A DNA stretch of 64,000 nt. It comes from an uncultured Alphaproteobacteria bacterium (GTDB lineage: Bacteria > Pseudomonadota > Alphaproteobacteria > Rs-D84). The position numbers and the translations under genes are program-made. Each line of letters begins with the position of its first letter. Within the stretch, counting starts at the first letter, position 1. Below the pieces are notes generated by a model. That model saw only the letters and a program-made list of their open reading frames with translations. It was not told the origin of the DNA and searched no databases. Positions 8,985 through 18,978 of this stretch are shown here, piece after piece. The stretch covers positions 19,976-83,975 of the forward strand of contig CAMRWN010000002.1 in the NCBI GenBank assembly GCA_947054455.1, read 5' to 3'.

Positions 8985-9012
8985 AAGGCGCATAATTTAT
9001 ATTATGTATAGT
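8985..9012. other. dif-like XerC/D site (attL, host-type XerC arm)
   Basis: AAGGCGCATAA-TTTATA-TTATGTATAGT matches 21 of 28 positions of E. coli dif as I recall it (GGTGCGCATAATGTATATTATGTTAAAT). Confidence 0.8.
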
Positions 9013-9086
9013 TTACAAAGTGTGCCCTATCGGGTTAATATTTGATTTTACGATATAAATCGCAAAACCGACTTTATACAGATATA

Positions 9087-9221
9087 TTAAAGTCGTTTGT
9101 TAACTTTCCTATATCTAGTATCTTCTTTATACCATGCTCTTGCTCGAACACGAGAAAGAACGTACTCGAAAAACAAAGACAAAAACATAGCAAAAAAAAC
9201 AGAAAATAAAATCAACAACAT
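9087..9221 (-). CDS. 44-aa membrane peptide (N-terminal TM, basic tail), phage copy 1
   Basis: MLLILFSVFFAMFLSLFFEYVLSRVRARAWYKEDTRYRKVNKRL. The ATG directly follows the VP2 stop (GGAGGCAGTAAATG), with a GGAGG SD inside the VP2 end. Below the ORF-track cutoff. Confidence 0.6.
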   Translation of the reverse strand: MLLILFSVFFAMFLSLFFEYVLSRVRARAWYKEDTRYRKVNKRL

Positions 9222-10025
9222 TTACTGCCTCCATGCGCCAACAGCGGCAAGAGCCAATTCAGAAGGCGATATATAAAGCCTATCCAAATTCTGAATATCA
9301 CGACCAGTAGCACGCTTATAATCATCAGCTATCTTCATTCGTAACTGAGGACTTACAACATCACCATTAAGACCTATAGAACCATTCCTATAAGCATATT
9401 GCAAAGAAGACAAATAACCAGCATTATCAGAATCATTTTCTGTTACATCCTGATTAACCATCAATCGAGGGTCACCATTCAAGTCATATGCAATTCTAAA
9501 TAACTGAGAATCTGTACCAATAGGAGGCTGTTCGGTATTACCAGAAGGCATACCAGGCTGACGCATAATATTAAGTTCAGCCCTCATTGTATCGTTACGG
9601 ATACGCTTGGCCTCAAGGTCAAGATCCCTGCTCTCTTGCTCCTGACGATTAAAGATTTGCGAAATCCTATTAATAGCAGAAGATATCGCGCTACCTTTCT
9701 GATATCCAGCATCAGAATTGCCACCAGCACTCATGGTAGGACTAACATTTGAAGAAACACCCAAGGCGGCAAGAGGATTTATACCGGCCTTAAGGGCATC
9801 TCGAACTCGATACTGAGTCGCATTCTTCTGAAAGTCCATTTGCTCGTTAAATTGACGACGAGCCTCATGACGATTATGACGAGATTCTTTCTTACTAGAA
9901 GAAGAACCAAACAAACCACCAATTAAATCACCGACGGCACCAACACCGGCACCAATAAAAGAACCAAGTCCGGGGGAAATAGAAGTACCCAAAGTAGCAC
10001 CAGTTGCAGTTAGTTCACCTGCCAT
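9222..10025 (-). CDS. Microviridae minor capsid/DNA pilot protein (VP2/H-like), copy 1
   Basis: 267 aa with a Gly-rich N-terminus and QMDFQKNATQYRVRDALKAGINPLAALG, the conserved pilot-protein motif. Confidence 0.8.
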   Translation of the reverse strand: MAGELTATGATLGTSISPGLGSFIGAGVGAVGDLIGGLFGSSSSKKESRHNRHEARRQFNEQMDFQKNATQYRVRDALKAGINPLAALGVSSNVSPTMSAGGNSDAGYQKGSAISSAINRISQIFNRQEQESRDLDLEAKRIRNDTMRAELNIMRQPGMPSGNTEQPPIGTDSQLFRIAYDLNGDPRLMVNQDVTENDSDNAGYLSSLQYAYRNGSIGLNGDVVSPQLRMKIADDYKRATGRDIQNLDRLYISPSELALAAVGAWRQ

Positions 10026-10453
10026 TATTCACACCTTATTATTATTCCAGGGCGACGTGGTTTCTGTCCACCTTTTCCAGACTTTCCCTTAGCAAACAAC
10101 ACTTCACGACGCTCTCTACGCTGTACGCAAACTGGATGTTGCCTTGGTAAATCTACCTGAATTCTACCATACTGGCCAACAGAAATCAAGCCTATATTAT
10201 TTTGGTCCTGTACCGCCAAACGATTAGCGCGCTTTATATCCCGGCGGGACATATTAAGACGGCGCATCCTTTCGGATGGTACAGGGGGTACAAAGGGCCG
10301 TGTCGGTCGTATTTGTTCTCGACTAGACGGCCCTAATACAGACCGCAAGCCCCGTAGACGAGGGTCTACGAGAATGGACCTCGCCATTCGGGTTGCGGGA
10401 GTTGTTAATTTATCAACTCGATTTTGTCTTCTTATTCGTCTTCTCAAACTCAT
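10025..10453 (-). CDS. Arg-rich basic phage protein of unknown function, copy 1
   Basis: 142 aa starting MSLRRRIRRQNR. Its TAATG stop/start overlap with VP2 implies translational coupling. Confidence 0.6.
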   Translation of the reverse strand: MSLRRRIRRQNRVDKLTTPATRMARSILVDPRLRGLRSVLGPSSREQIRPTRPFVPPVPSERMRRLNMSRRDIKRANRLAVQDQNNIGLISVGQYGRIQVDLPRQHPVCVQRRERREVLFAKGKSGKGGQKPRRPGIIIRCE

Positions 10454-10492
10454 AACAAAATCCTGTCAATACGCACATACATAGACAAGCCA

Positions 10493-11023
10493 CTATGATG
10501 TATGTGCTCCGTCAGAAGCTTCTGGAGTATTGCTCGGCATGCCTGAGGGCTCTAAAGAGCCCGCAGGAACGGCCTCATCGGCCGATACTCCTGCTACAGG
10601 CATCAAAGGCTCTGCCGGCTTGCCGGCAGGCATTTTAGGCTCAGCAGCGGGGGATATCACTTCACCGAATTCATCTCGAACTTCGGTATTGTCCAACAGA
10701 CTATCATCATTCGGGTCCTCTTCGGGGTCATTCGTGAACATTTCGCCAAGAGCGAACTGCATCGAAGCACGGGAAGCAGACACCGCGGCGGCCAATCTAT
10801 CATAACGAGCGATACGCTCAGCAAGAGTTTCAGTCTTACGAATCCGGTCCACAAGCGGACCACGAACATGAACCTCATTACCATATTCATCCAGGTAAAT
10901 CTTGGCCTTTTCATTCCTAGACTTACTCAACGATTTTGACAAACGTTCAAATTCAGCATTTGCCAGGTCATGGCCAATATTACGAGCACGGGCCAAAATA
11001 AATGATTCTTTACTTATTTTCAT
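10493..11023 (-). CDS. Phage protein with acidic/Pro-rich C-terminus (candidate internal scaffolding protein), copy 1
   Basis: 176-aa ORF 11 nt downstream of the capsid gene. The scaffold call rests only on position and composition. Confidence 0.4.
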   Translation of the reverse strand: MKISKESFILARARNIGHDLANAEFERLSKSLSKSRNEKAKIYLDEYGNEVHVRGPLVDRIRKTETLAERIARYDRLAAAVSASRASMQFALGEMFTNDPEEDPNDDSLLDNTEVRDEFGEVISPAAEPKMPAGKPAEPLMPVAGVSADEAVPAGSLEPSGMPSNTPEASDGAHTS

Positions 11024-11034
11024 TTCATATTCCT

Positions 11035-12531
11035 TTATCTAAAACGAGGGTTACCATTCGGAGATACCATATTACGCTCGATAAACGTATTACGTATAGC
11101 CGCGGCCTCAACATGAGGCGAATTTTCCATATCATTAAAAATACGAGGTGATGGATTACACTCTAAAAAGTCAGAATTTAACTCAGGAGCAGTCGTAAAG
11201 ACTCGACCTTGATGATATACCAGGTTAGTACTTTTCATAGATCCAGACACGTCATTAAGAGAACTACGATACTCATCGTAACGGTTATAGTAACCCCAAC
11301 GCTGATTATCTTGCTCTTCATTACCAGTCGGGAACAAAATTCCTTTCTTCATTTCAGCCATACCAACATGGGCAAATTCCGGAGTATAAATATCCTCACG
11401 AACATCGAAAGCCCATTCCATAGGCTGAATATTAACATACAAGGGAGCCGGCCGGATACAAACCAAATGTATAACAGTCGATGGCTCTTCGAAGTATGTC
11501 TTATAAGAACATGAACCATAACCAGTAGCAGTTCCACCACGTTGTCCAACGTATGAACTGGTCCCGGGGGCTGTCTGCAAAACACCATTAACATCCATCA
11601 TAGAACGACCATGAGCCAAGGTTTCAGGTAACTGCAAACGACGGTCGGAATACTTAATACCTAAATATGCCAACCAATCACGAAACCTCGAACCATACAG
11701 ATTACGTTTTATCTTCCAGGCCTGTTGCGCCATCGCAAAATTAAAGTCAGAAGGCAATATGCCAGTCGATTGAGAAAGATCTGCAGTTAATCCTTCAATT
11801 ACACCAGAAGACTGAGCACTATATGAGGTTTGATTAGTAACATCACCACCAGGATTAACAAAAGAACCATTTGGTAAACCTGTAACTACTTTTAAAGAAC
11901 CTCTTGAAGTAGAAATCAAATTAGAATTACCAACAACAGGTGCAGAAGTTGCAAAAGGTATTACAACCTCATCACCAAGCTGTTCCTCGACCAAGGAAGT
12001 AGTAAAAATATCCTTGGGCCAATTCATATGCCACAACTGTGTATTAGTAACAGTATCAAGGCCAGAGGCAGTAGATACAGGCAATTTTTCCTGTATATTA
12101 GGATCTAATACATGCTCATTTATCCACATAGCATATAAACGGAACGGCAAAGCGTTACACTTAAGATTAGGAACACCAGTAGCAAAACCTAAATGGTCGG
12201 CCAAAGAACCAACAGGCCAACCGCCTTCAGCCGGGGCAAGTATATAAGGCGGAACCGGACGAGTATTACCGTCTTCACCACCTGTATAAAAATCCTCAGC
12301 ATCATCCCATAAAATACGGTCATAGCCTGATATAGCAAACGTATCAACACGCATCTGGGTCAATGATTGACGAGCCAGGGAAGCCATTTGAAAGCCACCA
12401 GCAACACCTCCTCGAACAGTAGTACCAGCTATACAATGCCTGGCCGCAGTAGGAACCAATTCGGCCATATTAAAGCTTGTAATACGAGTATTCGAACGAT
12501 TATGATTATATCTTTTTAATCGAACTACCAT
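11035..12531 (-). CDS. Microviridae major capsid protein (F/VP1), copy 1
   Basis: Motifs SFNMAELVP, LPFRLYAMWINEH, DIFTTS and GSRFRDWLAYLGIKYSDRRLQLPETL. Start set at ATG 12531 (GGAGAAAAAAAAGATG) rather than the ORF-track start at 12582. Confidence 0.95.
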   Translation of the reverse strand: MVVRLKRYNHNRSNTRITSFNMAELVPTAARHCIAGTTVRGGVAGGFQMASLARQSLTQMRVDTFAISGYDRILWDDAEDFYTGGEDGNTRPVPPYILAPAEGGWPVGSLADHLGFATGVPNLKCNALPFRLYAMWINEHVLDPNIQEKLPVSTASGLDTVTNTQLWHMNWPKDIFTTSLVEEQLGDEVVIPFATSAPVVGNSNLISTSRGSLKVVTGLPNGSFVNPGGDVTNQTSYSAQSSGVIEGLTADLSQSTGILPSDFNFAMAQQAWKIKRNLYGSRFRDWLAYLGIKYSDRRLQLPETLAHGRSMMDVNGVLQTAPGTSSYVGQRGGTATGYGSCSYKTYFEEPSTVIHLVCIRPAPLYVNIQPMEWAFDVREDIYTPEFAHVGMAEMKKGILFPTGNEEQDNQRWGYYNRYDEYRSSLNDVSGSMKSTNLVYHQGRVFTTAPELNSDFLECNPSPRIFNDMENSPHVEAAAIRNTFIERNMVSPNGNPRFR

Positions 12532-12615
12532 CTTTTTTTTCTCCAAAATTAAAAAACAATTGACGATAAACCATATAATCATATATGGTCATCTGCTTAT
12601 ATTCTCGATTTTTCA

Positions 12616-12702
12616 TCAATTAAAACCAAAAAAAGCACCAACGGCACCAACAATAGCACCAACAATTCCCCAGGCAAATTTTACCCATTTCATAGTATTC
12701 AT
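12616..12702 (-). CDS. 28-aa glycine-zipper hydrophobic peptide, copy 1
   Basis: MNTMKWVKFAWGIVGAIVGAVGAFFGFN. GGAGG lies 6 nt upstream and the ATG overlaps the Rep stop (TTATGA). Below the ORF-track cutoff. Confidence 0.6.
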   Translation of the reverse strand: MNTMKWVKFAWGIVGAIVGAVGAFFGFN

Positions 12703-13568
12703 AAATACCTCCTATGTCTTAATTTATCAGATTTTTTATCAAGTTTTTCGCGCTCTTGCCATTTCGGCCGAAGAATATCAGAAATTTCTTTCCAACTTAA
12801 CGGCACGCACGACACAGTTTCGCGAATCTTCTCTTTAACCAGAAAATCCTTGAACCTCTTCTGGTCGCTGAATTCTTGTTGTTCTTCCTCATTATATAAT
12901 TTCCAAATATTACGAAGCTTATCGCGAATATACCGAGGCAAACGAATCCATTTACCACCAATACGAACGCTAAACGGAGGATAAGCATAATTCAAAACAC
13001 GCTCACGAAATGACTCATCAGTAGCGAATTTCTCAAGTATATCATAAAGTAAACCATACCCTAAGGCAGGTTTCCTCGATGCCAAGAAAAATTCAGGTGT
13101 GCGACCGTCAAGACGAACATCACCTGATTTAGTCATTTTCTTTGTAACATAGCCAGATATATAATCACAACGACCATAAGTCATGTGGTCTATATCGACA
13201 TTACCAAAACGCCAAGCCTTACGTAATGCATCAAAGCAATCACTATCGGCAAAGACAGCAACATGATAATGTGCACGCTCTGTATCATCACCATATTCAC
13301 CAACTAAAAAAGTCCGGGGAGTATAGCCAAGAAAATATTCAAGACGTTTTTTGAACTTTTTAGCAGTTTCCTTGGACAAACAACCATCGGCCGGATAAAA
13401 CTCCGGGGAGTAAGTCAATCCAACGAAATAATTATAATTATGGTAACGCATTTCTATTTTAAGCCTATCGGCCCACTCTTTCTTCTTATTCTTCAAACAA
13501 CCTGGACACTTACCGCAAGAAGTGAAACCAAGTGAACTTGAATAATTTGGATTTGTACAATAAGCCAT
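12699..13568 (-). CDS. Microviridae replication initiator (HUH endonuclease, VP4/A-like), copy 1
   Basis: Motifs FVGLTYSP, HYHVAVF (HUH) and YISGYVTKK. The likely start is ATG 13568 (MAYCTNP). The ORF-track GTG start at 13691 lies inside the dif-like site. Confidence 0.9.
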   Translation of the reverse strand: MAYCTNPNYSSSLGFTSCGKCPGCLKNKKKEWADRLKIEMRYHNYNYFVGLTYSPEFYPADGCLSKETAKKFKKRLEYFLGYTPRTFLVGEYGDDTERAHYHVAVFADSDCFDALRKAWRFGNVDIDHMTYGRCDYISGYVTKKMTKSGDVRLDGRTPEFFLASRKPALGYGLLYDILEKFATDESFRERVLNYAYPPFSVRIGGKWIRLPRYIRDKLRNIWKLYNEEEQQEFSDQKRFKDFLVKEKIRETVSCVPLSWKEISDILRPKWQEREKLDKKSDKLRHRRYL

Positions 13569-13657
13569 TAATACGTACGCGCACGACGACGGTACAAGCG
13601 GCGTGCACCAGTACGCATACGCAAACGACGACGTAAACGATAACGACGAAATCTCAT
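13568..13657 (-). CDS. 29-aa Arg-rich DNA-binding protein (J/VP8-like), copy 1
   Basis: MRFRRYRLRRRLRMRTGARRLYRRRARTY has 15 Arg in 29 aa. An AGGAG lies upstream, and the stop overlaps the Rep ATG (TAATG). Below the ORF-track cutoff. Confidence 0.65.
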   Translation of the reverse strand: MRFRRYRLRRRLRMRTGARRLYRRRARTY

Positions 13658-13682
13658 GCCCTACTCCTATATATAGATGGAT

Positions 13683-13710
13683 AAGGCGCACTATTTATAT
13701 TATGTATAGT
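13683..13710. other. dif-like site between the two phage copies (phage-type attP)
   Basis: AAGGCGCACTA-TTTATA-TTATGTATAGT differs from the 8985 site only at positions 9-10 (TA to CT). Confidence 0.8.
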
Positions 13711-13784
13711 TTACAAAGTGTGCCCTATCGGGTTAATATTTGATTTTACGATATAAATCGCAAAACCGACTTTATACAGATATA

Positions 13785-13919
13785 TTAAAGTCGTTTGTTA
13801 ACTTTCCTATATCTAGTATCTTCTTTATACCATGCTCTTGCTCGAACACGAGAAAGAACGTACTCGAAAAACAAAGACAAAAACATAGCAAAAAAAACAG
13901 AAAATAAAATCAACAACAT
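13785..13919 (-). CDS. 44-aa membrane peptide, phage copy 2
   Basis: Matches 9087-9221 at +4698 (the tracked flanking ORFs are identical). Confidence 0.6.
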   Translation of the reverse strand: MLLILFSVFFAMFLSLFFEYVLSRVRARAWYKEDTRYRKVNKRL

Positions 13920-14723
13920 TTACTGCCTCCATGCGCCAACAGCGGCAAGAGCCAATTCAGAAGGCGATATATAAAGCCTATCCAAATTCTGAATATCACG
14001 ACCAGTAGCACGCTTATAATCATCAGCTATCTTCATTCGTAACTGAGGACTTACAACATCACCATTAAGACCTATAGAACCATTCCTATAAGCATATTGC
14101 AAAGAAGACAAATAACCAGCATTATCAGAATCATTTTCTGTTACATCCTGATTAACCATCAATCGAGGGTCACCATTCAAGTCATATGCAATTCTAAATA
14201 ACTGAGAATCTGTACCAATAGGAGGCTGTTCGGTATTACCAGAAGGCATACCAGGCTGACGCATAATATTAAGTTCAGCCCTCATTGTATCGTTACGGAT
14301 ACGCTTGGCCTCAAGGTCAAGATCCCTGCTCTCTTGCTCCTGACGATTAAAGATTTGCGAAATCCTATTAATAGCAGAAGATATCGCGCTACCTTTCTGA
14401 TATCCAGCATCAGAATTGCCACCAGCACTCATGGTAGGACTAACATTTGAAGAAACACCCAAGGCGGCAAGAGGATTTATACCGGCCTTAAGGGCATCTC
14501 GAACTCGATACTGAGTCGCATTCTTCTGAAAGTCCATTTGCTCGTTAAATTGACGACGAGCCTCATGACGATTATGACGAGATTCTTTCTTACTAGAAGA
14601 AGAACCAAACAAACCACCAATTAAATCACCGACGGCACCAACACCGGCACCAATAAAAGAACCAAGTCCGGGGGAAATAGAAGTACCCAAAGTAGCACCA
14701 GTTGCAGTTAGTTCACCTGCCAT
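13920..14723 (-). CDS. Microviridae pilot protein (VP2/H-like), copy 2
   Basis: Translation identical to 9222-10025. Confidence 0.8.
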   Translation of the reverse strand: MAGELTATGATLGTSISPGLGSFIGAGVGAVGDLIGGLFGSSSSKKESRHNRHEARRQFNEQMDFQKNATQYRVRDALKAGINPLAALGVSSNVSPTMSAGGNSDAGYQKGSAISSAINRISQIFNRQEQESRDLDLEAKRIRNDTMRAELNIMRQPGMPSGNTEQPPIGTDSQLFRIAYDLNGDPRLMVNQDVTENDSDNAGYLSSLQYAYRNGSIGLNGDVVSPQLRMKIADDYKRATGRDIQNLDRLYISPSELALAAVGAWRQ

Positions 14724-15151
14724 TATTCACACCTTATTATTATTCCAGGGCGACGTGGTTTCTGTCCACCTTTTCCAGACTTTCCCTTAGCAAACAACAC
14801 TTCACGACGCTCTCTACGCTGTACGCAAACTGGATGTTGCCTTGGTAAATCTACCTGAATTCTACCATACTGGCCAACAGAAATCAAGCCTATATTATTT
14901 TGGTCCTGTACCGCCAAACGATTAGCGCGCTTTATATCCCGGCGGGACATATTAAGACGGCGCATCCTTTCGGATGGTACAGGGGGTACAAAGGGCCGTG
15001 TCGGTCGTATTTGTTCTCGACTAGACGGCCCTAATACAGACCGCAAGCCCCGTAGACGAGGGTCTACGAGAATGGACCTCGCCATTCGGGTTGCGGGAGT
15101 TGTTAATTTATCAACTCGATTTTGTCTTCTTATTCGTCTTCTCAAACTCAT
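14723..15151 (-). CDS. Arg-rich basic phage protein, copy 2
   Basis: Translation identical to 10025-10453. Confidence 0.6.
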   Translation of the reverse strand: MSLRRRIRRQNRVDKLTTPATRMARSILVDPRLRGLRSVLGPSSREQIRPTRPFVPPVPSERMRRLNMSRRDIKRANRLAVQDQNNIGLISVGQYGRIQVDLPRQHPVCVQRRERREVLFAKGKSGKGGQKPRRPGIIIRCE

Positions 15152-15190
15152 AACAAAATCCTGTCAATACGCACATACATAGACAAGCCA

Positions 15191-15721
15191 CTATGATGTA
15201 TGTGCTCCGTCAGAAGCTTCTGGAGTATTGCTCGGCATGCCTGAGGGCTCTAAAGAGCCCGCAGGAACGGCCTCATCGGCCGATACTCCTGCTACAGGCA
15301 TCAAAGGCTCTGCCGGCTTGCCGGCAGGCATTTTAGGCTCAGCAGCGGGGGATATCACTTCACCGAATTCATCTCGAACTTCGGTATTGTCCAACAGACT
15401 ATCATCATTCGGGTCCTCTTCGGGGTCATTCGTGAACATTTCGCCAAGAGCGAACTGCATCGAAGCACGGGAAGCAGACACCGCGGCGGCCAATCTATCA
15501 TAACGAGCGATACGCTCAGCAAGAGTTTCAGTCTTACGAATCCGGTCCACAAGCGGACCACGAACATGAACCTCATTACCATATTCATCCAGGTAAATCT
15601 TGGCCTTTTCATTCCTAGACTTACTCAACGATTTTGACAAACGTTCAAATTCAGCATTTGCCAGGTCATGGCCAATATTACGAGCACGGGCCAAAATAAA
15701 TGATTCTTTACTTATTTTCAT
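15191..15721 (-). CDS. Candidate internal scaffolding protein, copy 2
   Basis: Translation identical to 10493-11023. Confidence 0.4.
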   Translation of the reverse strand: MKISKESFILARARNIGHDLANAEFERLSKSLSKSRNEKAKIYLDEYGNEVHVRGPLVDRIRKTETLAERIARYDRLAAAVSASRASMQFALGEMFTNDPEEDPNDDSLLDNTEVRDEFGEVISPAAEPKMPAGKPAEPLMPVAGVSADEAVPAGSLEPSGMPSNTPEASDGAHTS

Positions 15722-15732
15722 TTCATATTCCT

Positions 15733-17229
15733 TTATCTAAAACGAGGGTTACCATTCGGAGATACCATATTACGCTCGATAAACGTATTACGTATAGCCG
15801 CGGCCTCAACATGAGGCGAATTTTCCATATCATTAAAAATACGAGGTGATGGATTACACTCTAAAAAGTCAGAATTTAACTCAGGAGCAGTCGTAAAGAC
15901 TCGACCTTGATGATATACCAGGTTAGTACTTTTCATAGATCCAGACACGTCATTAAGAGAACTACGATACTCATCGTAACGGTTATAGTAACCCCAACGC
16001 TGATTATCTTGCTCTTCATTACCAGTCGGGAACAAAATTCCTTTCTTCATTTCAGCCATACCAACATGGGCAAATTCCGGAGTATAAATATCCTCACGAA
16101 CATCGAAAGCCCATTCCATAGGCTGAATATTAACATACAAGGGAGCCGGCCGGATACAAACCAAATGTATAACAGTCGATGGCTCTTCGAAGTATGTCTT
16201 ATAAGAACATGAACCATAACCAGTAGCAGTTCCACCACGTTGTCCAACGTATGAACTGGTCCCGGGGGCTGTCTGCAAAACACCATTAACATCCATCATA
16301 GAACGACCATGAGCCAAGGTTTCAGGTAACTGCAAACGACGGTCGGAATACTTAATACCTAAATATGCCAACCAATCACGAAACCTCGAACCATACAGAT
16401 TACGTTTTATCTTCCAGGCCTGTTGCGCCATCGCAAAATTAAAGTCAGAAGGCAATATGCCAGTCGATTGAGAAAGATCTGCAGTTAATCCTTCAATTAC
16501 ACCAGAAGACTGAGCACTATATGAGGTTTGATTAGTAACATCACCACCAGGATTAACAAAAGAACCATTTGGTAAACCTGTAACTACTTTTAAAGAACCT
16601 CTTGAAGTAGAAATCAAATTAGAATTACCAACAACAGGTGCAGAAGTTGCAAAAGGTATTACAACCTCATCACCAAGCTGTTCCTCGACCAAGGAAGTAG
16701 TAAAAATATCCTTGGGCCAATTCATATGCCACAACTGTGTATTAGTAACAGTATCAAGGCCAGAGGCAGTAGATACAGGCAATTTTTCCTGTATATTAGG
16801 ATCTAATACATGCTCATTTATCCACATAGCATATAAACGGAACGGCAAAGCGTTACACTTAAGATTAGGAACACCAGTAGCAAAACCTAAATGGTCGGCC
16901 AAAGAACCAACAGGCCAACCGCCTTCAGCCGGGGCAAGTATATAAGGCGGAACCGGACGAGTATTACCGTCTTCACCACCTGTATAAAAATCCTCAGCAT
17001 CATCCCATAAAATACGGTCATAGCCTGATATAGCAAACGTATCAACACGCATCTGGGTCAATGATTGACGAGCCAGGGAAGCCATTTGAAAGCCACCAGC
17101 AACACCTCCTCGAACAGTAGTACCAGCTATACAATGCCTGGCCGCAGTAGGAACCAATTCGGCCATATTAAAGCTTGTAATACGAGTATTCGAACGATTA
17201 TGATTATATCTTTTTAATCGAACTACCAT
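15733..17229 (-). CDS. Microviridae major capsid protein (F/VP1), copy 2
   Basis: Translation identical to 11035-12531. Confidence 0.95.
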   Translation of the reverse strand: MVVRLKRYNHNRSNTRITSFNMAELVPTAARHCIAGTTVRGGVAGGFQMASLARQSLTQMRVDTFAISGYDRILWDDAEDFYTGGEDGNTRPVPPYILAPAEGGWPVGSLADHLGFATGVPNLKCNALPFRLYAMWINEHVLDPNIQEKLPVSTASGLDTVTNTQLWHMNWPKDIFTTSLVEEQLGDEVVIPFATSAPVVGNSNLISTSRGSLKVVTGLPNGSFVNPGGDVTNQTSYSAQSSGVIEGLTADLSQSTGILPSDFNFAMAQQAWKIKRNLYGSRFRDWLAYLGIKYSDRRLQLPETLAHGRSMMDVNGVLQTAPGTSSYVGQRGGTATGYGSCSYKTYFEEPSTVIHLVCIRPAPLYVNIQPMEWAFDVREDIYTPEFAHVGMAEMKKGILFPTGNEEQDNQRWGYYNRYDEYRSSLNDVSGSMKSTNLVYHQGRVFTTAPELNSDFLECNPSPRIFNDMENSPHVEAAAIRNTFIERNMVSPNGNPRFR

Positions 17230-17313
17230 CTTTTTTTTCTCCAAAATTAAAAAACAATTGACGATAAACCATATAATCATATATGGTCATCTGCTTATAT
17301 TCTCGATTTTTCA

Positions 17314-17400
17314 TCAATTAAAACCAAAAAAAGCACCAACGGCACCAACAATAGCACCAACAATTCCCCAGGCAAATTTTACCCATTTCATAGTATTCAT
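17314..17400 (-). CDS. 28-aa glycine-zipper hydrophobic peptide, copy 2
   Basis: Matches 12616-12702 at +4698. Confidence 0.6.
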   Translation of the reverse strand: MNTMKWVKFAWGIVGAIVGAVGAFFGFN

Positions 17401-18266
17401 AAATACCTCCTATGTCTTAATTTATCAGATTTTTTATCAAGTTTTTCGCGCTCTTGCCATTTCGGCCGAAGAATATCAGAAATTTCTTTCCAACTTAACG
17501 GCACGCACGACACAGTTTCGCGAATCTTCTCTTTAACCAGAAAATCCTTGAACCTCTTCTGGTCGCTGAATTCTTGTTGTTCTTCCTCATTATATAATTT
17601 CCAAATATTACGAAGCTTATCGCGAATATACCGAGGCAAACGAATCCATTTACCACCAATACGAACGCTAAACGGAGGATAAGCATAATTCAAAACACGC
17701 TCACGAAATGACTCATCAGTAGCGAATTTCTCAAGTATATCATAAAGTAAACCATACCCTAAGGCAGGTTTCCTCGATGCCAAGAAAAATTCAGGTGTGC
17801 GACCGTCAAGACGAACATCACCTGATTTAGTCATTTTCTTTGTAACATAGCCAGATATATAATCACAACGACCATAAGTCATGTGGTCTATATCGACATT
17901 ACCAAAACGCCAAGCCTTACGTAATGCATCAAAGCAATCACTATCGGCAAAGACAGCAACATGATAATGTGCACGCTCTGTATCATCACCATATTCACCA
18001 ACTAAAAAAGTCCGGGGAGTATAGCCAAGAAAATATTCAAGACGTTTTTTGAACTTTTTAGCAGTTTCCTTGGACAAACAACCATCGGCCGGATAAAACT
18101 CCGGGGAGTAAGTCAATCCAACGAAATAATTATAATTATGGTAACGCATTTCTATTTTAAGCCTATCGGCCCACTCTTTCTTCTTATTCTTCAAACAACC
18201 TGGACACTTACCGCAAGAAGTGAAACCAAGTGAACTTGAATAATTTGGATTTGTACAATAAGCCAT
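17397..18266 (-). CDS. Microviridae replication initiator (VP4/A-like), copy 2
   Basis: Translation identical to 12699-13568. Confidence 0.9.
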   Translation of the reverse strand: MAYCTNPNYSSSLGFTSCGKCPGCLKNKKKEWADRLKIEMRYHNYNYFVGLTYSPEFYPADGCLSKETAKKFKKRLEYFLGYTPRTFLVGEYGDDTERAHYHVAVFADSDCFDALRKAWRFGNVDIDHMTYGRCDYISGYVTKKMTKSGDVRLDGRTPEFFLASRKPALGYGLLYDILEKFATDESFRERVLNYAYPPFSVRIGGKWIRLPRYIRDKLRNIWKLYNEEEQQEFSDQKRFKDFLVKEKIRETVSCVPLSWKEISDILRPKWQEREKLDKKSDKLRHRRYL

Positions 18267-18355
18267 TAATACGTACGCGCACGACGACGGTACAAGCGGC
18301 GTGCACCAGTACGCATACGCAAACGACGACGTAAACGATAACGACGAAATCTCAT
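18266..18355 (-). CDS. 29-aa Arg-rich J/VP8-like protein, copy 2
   Basis: Matches 13568-13657 at +4698. Confidence 0.65.
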   Translation of the reverse strand: MRFRRYRLRRRLRMRTGARRLYRRRARTY

Positions 18356-18380
18356 GCCCTACTCCTATATATAGATGGAT

Positions 18381-18408
18381 AAGGCGCACTATTTATATTA
18401 TGTATAGT
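18381..18408. other. dif-like site (attR, phage-type XerC arm)
   Basis: Same 28-mer as 13683-13710. Identity to the phage ends at 18410, after which host flank begins (tgtgttctgg). Confidence 0.8.
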
Positions 18409-18978
18409 TTTGTGTTCTGGTGGGCGCGAAAATGGCTATTTGTGTATATTTGTATGACTTTAATAAATCGTGTGCGTGGGACTAATTGATTGCTATCTTT
18501 TTATGAGAGTTTATAACGATAAAATGTGTATAAAAATATCTGTTAGTTTTATTATGAAAAAAGTTAATAAATTATTTTTAATAATTAAAATAATTTGTTG
18601 AATATATGAATATAATTTAATTTATCTGTTCGTGTTAAACATACTCATGGTTTATGCTGTTTTTATTATATTTGATGCATATTTGGCATCTGTTATACGT
18701 TTTTGTGTTTTATCATGATTATTTTGTTGCGTGATTATGTGAAAATATGTGGATATCGTCTTGATTTTGGCGGATTTTAATGGATTTTTCGTAAAATAAG
18801 CCGTAAAAACCGTGAAAAACCGCAGAAATCCGGGATTTTTTGCGTTTTTTAATATGTTTTTTACAAATTTTGTGCTTAATTTACCTGATTTGCTGCGGTT
18901 TGCCCTATAAAATACTTGAATTTGATTGGTGCAACGGCTAAAATTTTAACTGTTTAAATTAAAATTTTACCATAGGCG

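What the first reader, a model, noticed from the sequence alone, without database searches (positions are those of the whole stretch)
9087..9221. Hidden 44-aa TM-plus-basic-tail peptide directly after the pilot gene: second lysis/membrane candidate
MLLILFSVFFAMFLSLFFEYVLSRVRARAWYKEDTRYRKVNKRL starts one nucleotide after the VP2 stop and uses a GGAGG embedded in the VP2 end. Its architecture is an N-terminal TM helix followed by a strongly basic cytoplasmic tail. This resembles single-gene lysis proteins of small phages such as phiX174 E. It is the last gene before the att site.
Basis: partly seen in the sequence, partly recalled or inferred. Interest (0 to 1): 0.6.

Follow-up and report, generated by a model that had tools for sequence, protein, structure and literature searches.

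The report
Small membrane protein gene after pilot gene
A 44-codon gene directly after the DNA-pilot gene of an integrated 4.7-kb single-stranded-DNA phage is real and encodes a one-helix membrane protein with a basic tail, an untested candidate for how this phage group, which has no known lysis gene, opens its host.

Summary
The ORF at 9087-9221 (minus strand; identical second copy at 13785-13919) is the last gene of a microvirus prophage. The prophage sits as a tandem dimer at a dif-like site in a very small alphaproteobacterial genome. The ATG abuts the pilot stop (TAA|ATG) and a GGAGG lies 6 nt upstream.

The ORF is very likely a real gene. Eight homologues in related prophages and metagenome contigs occupy the same slot, all overlapping or abutting the pilot stop. 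They share a variable hydrophobic N-terminal helix and a juxtamembrane motif R-x-R-x-R-A-W whose arginine codons switch between CGN and AGA. More distant relatives carry a different small membrane ORF there with the same predicted N-out/C-in orientation.

The most conserved part of the tail (DTRYRKVKKRL) is invariant at the nucleotide level. It overlaps a conserved DNA element, so it is not clean evidence for selection on the protein.

There is no sequence relationship to phiX174 E or to any Pfam, PHROG, NCBIfam or PDB entry. The resemblance to E is architectural only.

A lysis role is plausible because the phage has no muralytic enzyme and the host has MraY and, in its genus, MurJ. It is unproven. 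A better-conserved 28-aa glycine-zipper peptide after Rep is a rival candidate.

The parts
9087..9221 (-). 44-aa ORF (stop included): predicted bitopic membrane protein. Hydrophobic helix at about residues 1-23; basic tail at 24-44.
13785..13919 (-). Identical second copy of the ORF, in the other unit of the tandem prophage dimer.
   Evidence: 4698-bp period; no mismatch in this stretch.
9228..9232 (-). GGAGG Shine-Dalgarno-like motif 6 nt before the ATG, inside the last pilot codons (A-W-R).
   Evidence: One search shows similar purine-rich motifs before five of the other six phage genes checked (none obvious before the capsid gene).
9222..10025 (-). DNA pilot protein gene (267 aa). Its TAA stop abuts the ATG of the small ORF.
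   Evidence: phrog_11693, E 1.6e-14; 98 homologues.
9132..9152 (-). Codons for the juxtamembrane motif R-V-R-A-R-A-W (residues 24-30). This is the segment with the best signal of selection on the protein.
   Evidence: Arg codons CGT/AGA/CGG, CGA/AGA/CGT and AGA/CGT across homologues. alignment.
9100..9122 (-). GATACTAGATATAGGAAAGTTAA: a nucleotide-invariant element that overlaps codons 34-41 (DTRYRKVN).
   Evidence: 0-1 mismatch in 6 relatives whose upstream ORF sequence differs by about 40%; partly conserved in L003 and L004, where it is non-coding.
9069..9095 (-). Hairpin CGACTTTA-N11-TAAAGTCG covering the last two codons and the stop, followed by GTTTTGCGATTT. Possible weak terminator.
   Evidence: DNA fold, z -2.8 for the region. 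Sequence read directly.
9044..9069 (-). Conserved hairpin GGTTTTGCGAT-TTAT-ATCGTAAAATC with compensatory changes in relatives.
   Evidence: 11-pair stem, compensatory changes at several pairs; 80-90% nt identity to bajarodmic viruses.
9025..9041 (-). ATATTAAC followed by the small CCC-GATA-GGG hairpin, conserved in all relatives. Candidate replication-origin region (inference).
8985..9014 (.). dif-like attachment site (left junction). Further copies at 13683-13712 and 18381-18410.
   Evidence: The same 26-nt core lies 180-300 nt after the pilot stop in 12 of the 15 relatives examined; one search adds dif-like sites after the pilot in two of three further relatives (L027, L029).
12616..12702 (-). 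28-aa glycine-zipper peptide ORF after Rep: rival membrane or lysis candidate.
   Evidence: near-identical in WIN, L019, L020 and L024; related in L001 and L006.

Best explanation
The ORF is a genuine late gene of a temperate, dif-integrating microvirus.

How it is made (inferred). Ribosomes that finish the pilot gene re-initiate at the abutting ATG, helped by the GGAGG 6 nt upstream. The 44-residue product inserts into the inner membrane as a single helix with the N-terminus outside. Its basic tail (net +7) stays in the cytoplasm, as the positive-inside rule predicts.

Family (shown). The family is defined by a variable hydrophobic helix followed by the juxtamembrane motif [R/Y]-[VIL]-[R/I]-x-x-[A/F]-W and a basic tail.

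Likely role (inferred, not shown). The protein accumulates with the structural proteins and compromises the envelope so that progeny escape. This could work by blocking a membrane step of peptidoglycan precursor supply, since MraY and MurJ are available in this host lineage. It could instead work by direct membrane damage.

My odds: real translated gene about 0.85; envelope or lysis role about 0.45.
For: Position and coupling:
- TAA|ATG abutment with GGAGG 6 nt upstream.
- All eight homologues start within -3 to +12 nt of the pilot stop (ATGA, TGATG, TAAATG), and most have a GGAG-type motif upstream.
- Independent pipelines called the homologues in L018 and L019 as 47-aa genes.

Chance:
- By shuffling, P = 0.3-3% per genome for length and under 0.5% for length plus hydrophobicity.

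Selection on the protein:
- Codon position 2 is the least variable: 0.28 against 0.57 and 0.52 in the helix.
- Arg codons switch between CGN and AGA within R-x-R-x-R-A-W.
- In-frame pN/pS is 0.41-0.63, against 0.67-2.6 off-frame, in diverged pairs.

Structure:
- AlphaFold2 gives one helix, residues 2-43, pLDDT 84.
- Flank charges are 0 to +1 at the N side and +3 to +9 at the C side in all nine members.

Case for a lysis role:
- None of the six phage proteins matches a muralytic enzyme or any lysis family.
- The literature states that non-phiX microviruses lack an identified lysis gene apart from acquired M15 peptidases (PMC7062461, PMC3394797, PMC11499846).
- The host has a bona fide MraY (TIGR00445, 278 bits). 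Its genus has MurJ in 40 of 41 genomes and PBPs in 41 of 41.
- Distant relatives carry a different small N-out/C-in membrane ORF in the same slot. That kind of turnover is, to my knowledge, typical of single-gene lysis genes.
Against: - There is no functional, transcript or proteomic evidence.
- The codon-level signal is modest. The close pairs do not separate frame 0 from frame +1, the L006/L027 pair differs mostly by non-synonymous changes, and the alignment was built in frame 0.
- The best-conserved tail segment is invariant at the nucleotide level and overlaps a DNA element. It says little about the protein.
- The ORF is absent from 3 of 18 relatives (L002, L025, L028). A fourth (L020) ends too early to judge.
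- A second membrane peptide, the 28-aa glycine zipper after Rep, is much better conserved and could be the lysis effector.
- The region is T-rich and poor in stop codons, so alternative-frame ORFs of 35-39 aa also exist.
Confidence: 0.45

Rival explanations
1. The ORF is a real small membrane protein, but it is not the lysis effector. It could be a superinfection-exclusion or lysogen-protecting factor. It could tune burst size as phiX174 K does. It could be a membrane anchor for replication or assembly, or a timing partner of the glycine-zipper peptide.
For: The 28-aa glycine-zipper peptide after Rep is near-identical across relatives whose capsids are only about 70% identical. That fits an essential core function better than the variable 44-aa protein does. 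The 44-aa ORF is dispensable in some relatives (L002, L025, L028), as accessory genes are. The phage is temperate (dif integration), so lysogen-expressed membrane factors are plausible.
Against: Its position at the 3' end of the structural-gene string, coupled to the pilot gene, points to late expression rather than lysogen-specific expression. No separate promoter was found. Variability and cassette-like replacement also fit lysis genes.
Confidence: 0.3
2. The ORF is not a gene. It is a by-product of a T-rich, stop-poor spacer between the pilot gene and the cis-acting region (hairpins, putative origin, dif). Apparent peptide conservation comes from conserved DNA elements.
For: The last 11 codons are invariant at all three codon positions, and the element is partly kept where it is non-coding. 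Conserved, covarying hairpins start at the stop codon. Alternative-frame ORFs of 35-39 aa exist in the same stretch. Close pairs give similar pN/pS in frames 0 and +1. Only two sequences of the family exist in a library of 1.84 billion representatives.
Against: The helix-coding part is not conserved as DNA, yet it stays open, ATG-initiated, hydrophobic and coupled to the pilot stop in nine lineages. Shuffles rarely reproduce this. Codon position 2 is selectively conserved and Arg codons switch family. Non-homologous ORFs with the same topology fill the slot in distant relatives.
Confidence: 0.13
3. It is a C-terminal extension of the pilot protein made by read-through of the TAA stop, since the ORF is in frame with the pilot gene in this window.
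For: In the window the two ORFs are contiguous in the same frame.
Against: In the homologues the small ORF is in a different frame from the pilot gene (ATGA and TGATG overlaps; an 11-nt gap in L022). A read-through fusion therefore cannot be the conserved product.
Confidence: 0.02

Closest known systems
phiX174 lysis protein E (Bullavirinae; Pfam Microvir_lysis; inhibits MraY together with host SlyD)
   Same: A small protein of a microvirus with an N-terminal membrane helix, a basic cytoplasmic C-terminal part and predicted N-out/C-in topology. The phage has no muralytic enzyme. The host has MraY.
   Different: No sequence similarity. It is 44 aa rather than 91. It is a stand-alone ORF after the pilot gene, not embedded out of frame in a scaffold gene. 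There is no conserved transmembrane proline. Conservation lies in the juxtamembrane and tail part rather than in the helix. Function is untested.
LysM / Sgl of ssRNA phage M (37 aa, blocks the lipid II flippase MurJ; PMC12506998)
   Same: Similar size, a single membrane helix, and a small-genome phage. MurJ is present in 40 of 41 genomes of the host genus.
   Different: An unrelated phage class with no sequence similarity. MurJ was not found in the window's own assembly, which is 86% complete.
phiX174 protein K (small, non-essential membrane protein that raises burst size; from my own knowledge)
   Same: A small hydrophobic microvirus accessory protein, dispensable in some relatives.
   Different: No sequence match to any Pfam family. 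Different genome position.
Unnamed 'hypothetical protein' ORFs after the pilot gene in Microvirus mar6 (QXN75017.1), Dipodfec virus UOA04_Rod_962 (WGL31345.1) and bajarodmic virus 786 (XHH70048.1)
   Same: Same genome slot and coupling to the pilot stop, one membrane helix, and the same charge asymmetry with a basic C-side.
   Different: Different architecture: a 10-33-aa acidic, Cys-containing N-terminal segment, a C-terminal helix and only 2-7 basic residues after it. They cannot be aligned with the window's protein.

Membership tests
phiX174 E / Pfam Microvir_lysis | Sequence match to the family profile | tested here: not met
   No Pfam family at E <= 0.1 for the window protein. Across eight members at E <= 10 only scattered weak hits, none to Microvir_lysis. 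No PDB relative.
phiX174 E / Pfam Microvir_lysis | N-terminal transmembrane helix with a basic cytoplasmic C-terminal part (N-out/C-in) | tested here: met
   The most hydrophobic 19-residue window is residues 1-19 (Kyte-Doolittle 2.37). The C-flank has net charge +7 and there is no N-flank. AF2 gives a single helix, 2-43. Topology is predicted, not measured.
phiX174 E / Pfam Microvir_lysis | Essential proline within the transmembrane helix (Pro21 of E; from my own knowledge) | tested here: not met
   There is no Pro in the window protein. A Pro lies in the helix of only 3 of 9 members (L018, L019, L023).
phiX174 E / Pfam Microvir_lysis | Gene embedded out of frame inside the external scaffold gene D | tested here: not met
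   Stand-alone ORF after the pilot gene, overlapping it by at most 4 nt.
phiX174 E / Pfam Microvir_lysis | Inhibits MraY; depends on SlyD | not testable with these tools
   Only the presence of the target could be checked: the host has MraY (TIGR00445, 278 bits).
Single-gene lysis proteins (functional class) | Expression of the one gene is sufficient for lysis | not testable with these tools
   Needs an expression experiment.
Single-gene lysis proteins (functional class) | The phage lacks an endolysin or other muralytic enzyme | tested here: met
   The six ORFs were scanned against Pfam and PHROGs. Only Rep, capsid and pilot were recognised, and no peptidase or lysozyme family.
Single-gene lysis proteins (functional class) | A known target (MurA, MraY or MurJ) is present in the host | tested here: met
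   MraY is present in the own genome. MurJ is present in 40 of 41 genus genomes but was not found in the own 86%-complete assembly. The MurA family is present in only 2 of 41.
Holins (holin-endolysin systems) | A small membrane protein paired with an endolysin gene | tested here: not met
   No endolysin or peptidase gene in the 4698-bp genome.
Type I toxin peptides (Hok, Fst, TisB-like) | A small membrane toxin controlled by an overlapping antisense RNA | not tested
   No promoter-like site on the opposite strand within the ORF was listed, apart from one at 9012-9041 reading through the hairpin region.

The most novel reading that the evidence does not exclude
The type-A peptides are a new family of single-gene lysis 'protein antibiotics'. 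Their conserved cytoplasmic-face motif (R-x-R-x-R-A-W) would block MraY or MurJ. The host lineage appears to have kept only the membrane steps of peptidoglycan synthesis. The peptides may act together with the conserved 28-aa glycine-zipper peptide as a two-peptide lysis system.
Probability: 0.15. Interest if true: 0.7.

Novelty: new variant of a known kind. Interest (0 to 1): 0.4.

Why it matters
Outside the phiX174 group, how microviruses lyse their hosts is largely unknown. Papers note the absence of a peptidoglycan-synthesis inhibitor, with only some lineages carrying acquired M15 peptidases (PMC7062461, PMC3394797, PMC11499846).

A conserved, translationally coupled membrane-protein slot after the pilot gene gives concrete 36-56-residue candidates. 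They can be synthesised and tested by inducible expression. If one is lytic, it would add a new small inhibitor of an envelope step.

The value is limited in three ways. The natural host is uncultured. A second, better-conserved peptide competes for the role. Small membrane ORFs next to pilot genes are a recurrent, already suspected theme.

Tried and rejected
- Direct homologue search with the 44-aa peptide in the 5.8-billion-protein index found only itself. Its contig could not be looked up.
- A profile search of 1.84 billion representatives found only the window peptide and the L019 peptide.
- tblastn against GenBank phages gave only chance hits, E >= 2.
- The viral-contig scan with the pilot protein found nothing, and with the capsid alignment only distant viruses. 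These were not used further.
- Pfam, PHROGs, NCBIfam and PDB gave no family for the peptide. PADLOC was not run.
- Read-through fusion with the pilot protein was rejected, because the homologues are out of frame with the pilot gene.
- A canonical terminator or promoter around the ORF was not found: the consensus scan listed no site on the minus strand between 9000 and 9300.
- I considered whether the nucleotide-invariant tail element is the Rep origin, because it resembles my recollection of the phiX174 origin core. That is a memory-based lead only. The ATATTAAC-hairpin region is conserved more widely, so the question is open.

Full report
**1. What is at the coordinates**

The sequence reads GGAGG-CAG-TAA-ATG. 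The TAA of the upstream 267-aa ORF (9222-10025) is directly followed by the ATG, and GGAGG lies 6 nt upstream.

The upstream ORF is a microvirus DNA pilot protein (phrog_11693, E 1.6e-14). The neighbouring ORFs are:
- the major capsid protein (Phage_F, E 2.6e-57);
- a Rep (PF23343; phrog_942);
- two unassigned proteins of 176 and 142 aa;
- a 29-aa arginine-rich J-like ORF.

The whole 4698-bp unit is repeated head to tail (9015-13712 and 13713-18410, identical except at the junctions). It is bounded by three dif-like 28-30-mers. The candidate therefore exists twice; the second copy is at 13785-13919. It is the last ORF before the left att site, 72 nt away.

The host genome is very small: 0.73 Mb at 86% completeness, with genus mates of 0.8-1.1 Mb. 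A genus mate is deposited as an uncultured alphaproteobacterium MAG.

**2. Is it more than chance?**

The region is T-rich and poor in stop codons, and alternative-frame ORFs of 35-39 aa exist, so this needed testing.

In 3000 dinucleotide-preserving shuffles of the 208 nt around the pilot stop, an ATG ORF of at least 44 codons starting near the stop appeared in 1.6%. None was also as hydrophobic. Comparable figures hold for 12 of 14 relatives.

**3. Relatives**

The peptide alone finds nothing but itself in the large protein index. Related phage genomes were found by other routes:
- GenBank phages: Microvirus mar6, three bajarodmic viruses and a Dipodfec virus.
- A prophage in a genus mate (L006).
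- A metagenome prophage (L017).
- Eleven contigs carrying pilot homologues.

Eight of these carry a clear homologue of the 44-aa protein in the same slot:
- L022: MWFIVLCLFFFFLMTITSLFIGYLHERLRARAWYREDTRYRKVKKRL
- L021 and L024: ...FLYFQSRAFCKAVEDHNTRYRKVKKRL
- L018 and L019: ...YDYWFTRIRSRAWHRGKEDTRYRKVKK
- L023: ...FVTYIRSIFWHKGKRRNRPQS
- L006 and L027: M..YWL...LIALWISVRVIRSAWR(S/G)

All start within -3 to +12 nt of the pilot stop (ATGA, TGATG, TAAATG). Most have a GGAG-type motif upstream. The L018 and L019 versions were independently called as 47-aa genes by the source pipelines.

More distant relatives (mar6, Dipodfec, L029, bajarodmic 786 and 626, L017) have a different small ORF in the slot. 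It has a 10-33-aa acidic, Cys-containing N-terminal part, a C-terminal helix and a short Lys-rich end.

In every case the N-flank is neutral or acidic and the C-flank is basic, which predicts the same N-out/C-in orientation. Three relatives lack such an ORF (L002, L025, L028), and one contig (L020) ends too early to judge.

**4. Protein-level or DNA-level conservation?**

In the codon alignment the helix part differs by about 50% at codon positions 1 and 3 but only 28% at position 2. This is the T that specifies hydrophobic residues.

Within the motif R-x-R-x-R-A-W the arginine codons switch between the CGN and AGA families. That is hard to explain without selection on the protein.

In-frame pN/pS is 0.41-0.63 for diverged pairs, against 0.67-2.6 in the two other frames. 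There are three caveats:
- The close pairs (L021/L024 and L018/L019) do not separate frame 0 from frame +1.
- The L006/L027 pair differs mostly by conservative non-synonymous changes.
- The alignment was built in frame 0.

The most striking peptide conservation, DTRYRKVKKRL, is not clean evidence. The 23 nt GATACTAGATATAGGAAAGTTAA (9100-9122) are invariant at all codon positions in six relatives. The element is partly retained where it is non-coding in L003 and L004.

Several further elements follow immediately downstream:
- a hairpin covering the stop codon (9069-9095);
- an 11-pair hairpin with compensatory changes (9044-9069);
- ATATTAAC plus a small CCC/GGG hairpin (9025-9041);
- the dif-like site.

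The 3' end of the ORF thus runs into the phage's cis-acting region. Taken together, I put the odds that this is a real translated gene at about 0.85.

**5. What the protein looks like**

AlphaFold2 with the eight-sequence alignment gives one continuous helix, residues 2-43. Mean pLDDT is 84: 94-95 over the hydrophobic part and 63-69 over the tail. The tail carries nine basic and two acidic residues.

No Pfam, PHROG, NCBIfam or PDB family matches. A profile search of 1.84 billion representatives returns only two members. GenBank phages contain none.

**6. Function**

Nothing here tests function. The case for an envelope or lysis role is circumstantial:
- The phage encodes no muralytic enzyme.
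- Papers state that microviruses outside the phiX174 group lack an identified peptidoglycan-synthesis inhibitor, with only some carrying acquired M15 peptidases (PMC7062461, PMC3394797, PMC11499846).
- The gene sits at the end of the structural-gene string, coupled to a low-copy virion protein.
- The slot shows cassette-like turnover with preserved topology.

The host context allows such a mechanism. It has a bona fide MraY next to an FtsW-like gene and a PBP1a. MurJ occurs in 40 of 41 genus genomes and PBPs in all 41. The MurA family was found in only 2 of 41.

Against a lysis role, a 28-aa glycine-zipper peptide coupled to Rep is near-identical across relatives and is an at least equally good candidate. 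The 44-aa ORF is also dispensable in some relatives. I put a lysis or envelope role at about 0.45, another membrane role at about 0.3, and non-coding at about 0.13.

**7. Comparison with the known**

The resemblance to phiX174 E is architectural only. Four tested features of E membership fail: the profile match, the embedded gene position and the transmembrane proline were not met, and conservation lies in the juxtamembrane and tail part rather than the helix. By size and simplicity the protein is as close to LysM of phage M. The nearest annotated things are the unnamed hypothetical proteins in the same slot of mar6 and the Dipodfec and bajarodmic viruses, which are of the other architectural type.

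**8. Verdict**

This is a new small family of a known general kind: small membrane proteins of small phages that are candidate single-gene lysis factors. Interest is moderate.

Noticed in passing
whole genome G000 and genus mates (not in the window): The host genus seems to keep the membrane steps of peptidoglycan synthesis: MraY, an FtsW-like gene, MurJ in 40 of 41 genomes, and 4-5 PBPs in 41 of 41. The MurA/EPSP-synthase family was found in only 2 of 41 genomes, and Mur ligases (PF08245) in 0 of 9. In G000, mraY is flanked directly by an FtsW-like gene and a PBP1a rather than by mur ligase genes. This would imply scavenging of cytoplasmic precursors, or a failure of the search's first-look filter.
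   Followed up: partly
window 12616-12702 (-), and the same slot in L001, L006, L019, L020, L024: A 28-aa glycine-zipper peptide (MNTMKWVKFAWGIVGAIVGAVGAFFGFN) coupled to the Rep stop is nearly identical across relatives whose capsids are about 70% identical. L002-L005 have a related MNSKAWTIAICTALTTFITQILQFLGV type.
   Followed up: partly
window 9044-9069 (-): A conserved 11-pair hairpin between the small ORF and dif shows compensatory base changes in relatives, including a fully flipped version in mar6. It is probably a cis-acting ssDNA or RNA element, for example for complementary-strand priming or transcript termination.
   Followed up: partly
window 9100-9122 (-) and 13658-13680 (-): The motif CTA(G/T)ATATAGGA occurs on both sides of the dif-like site in the circular map: once inside the tail codons of the 44-aa ORF and once just upstream of the J-like gene, where AGGAG serves as its ribosome-binding site. 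The same pairing is seen in L001, L022 and L024. Possible Rep- or promoter-related repeat.
   Followed up: no
protein P0001: The exact 44-aa sequence is recorded in the protein collection on a contig of 4718 bases. That is about one phage unit (4698 bp) plus a short overlap. It suggests the phage was also assembled as a stand-alone, probably circular, contig. The contig could not be retrieved.
   Followed up: no
window 13568-13657 (-) and 12699-13568 (-): The listed 330-aa Rep ORF (GTG at 13691) probably starts at the ATG at 13568, overlapping the stop of the 29-aa arginine-rich J-like ORF. Relatives show the same J-then-Rep arrangement.
   Followed up: partly
L001, L005, L029, L003 (slot after the pilot gene): The type-B slot proteins share a loose pattern: C-x(4-5)-D-x-(F/Y)-F-x(4-5)-C-x-Y, then a helix, then (V/I)K(Y/F)-(L/I)-x-K. 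They have two cysteines in the predicted periplasmic part.
   Followed up: no
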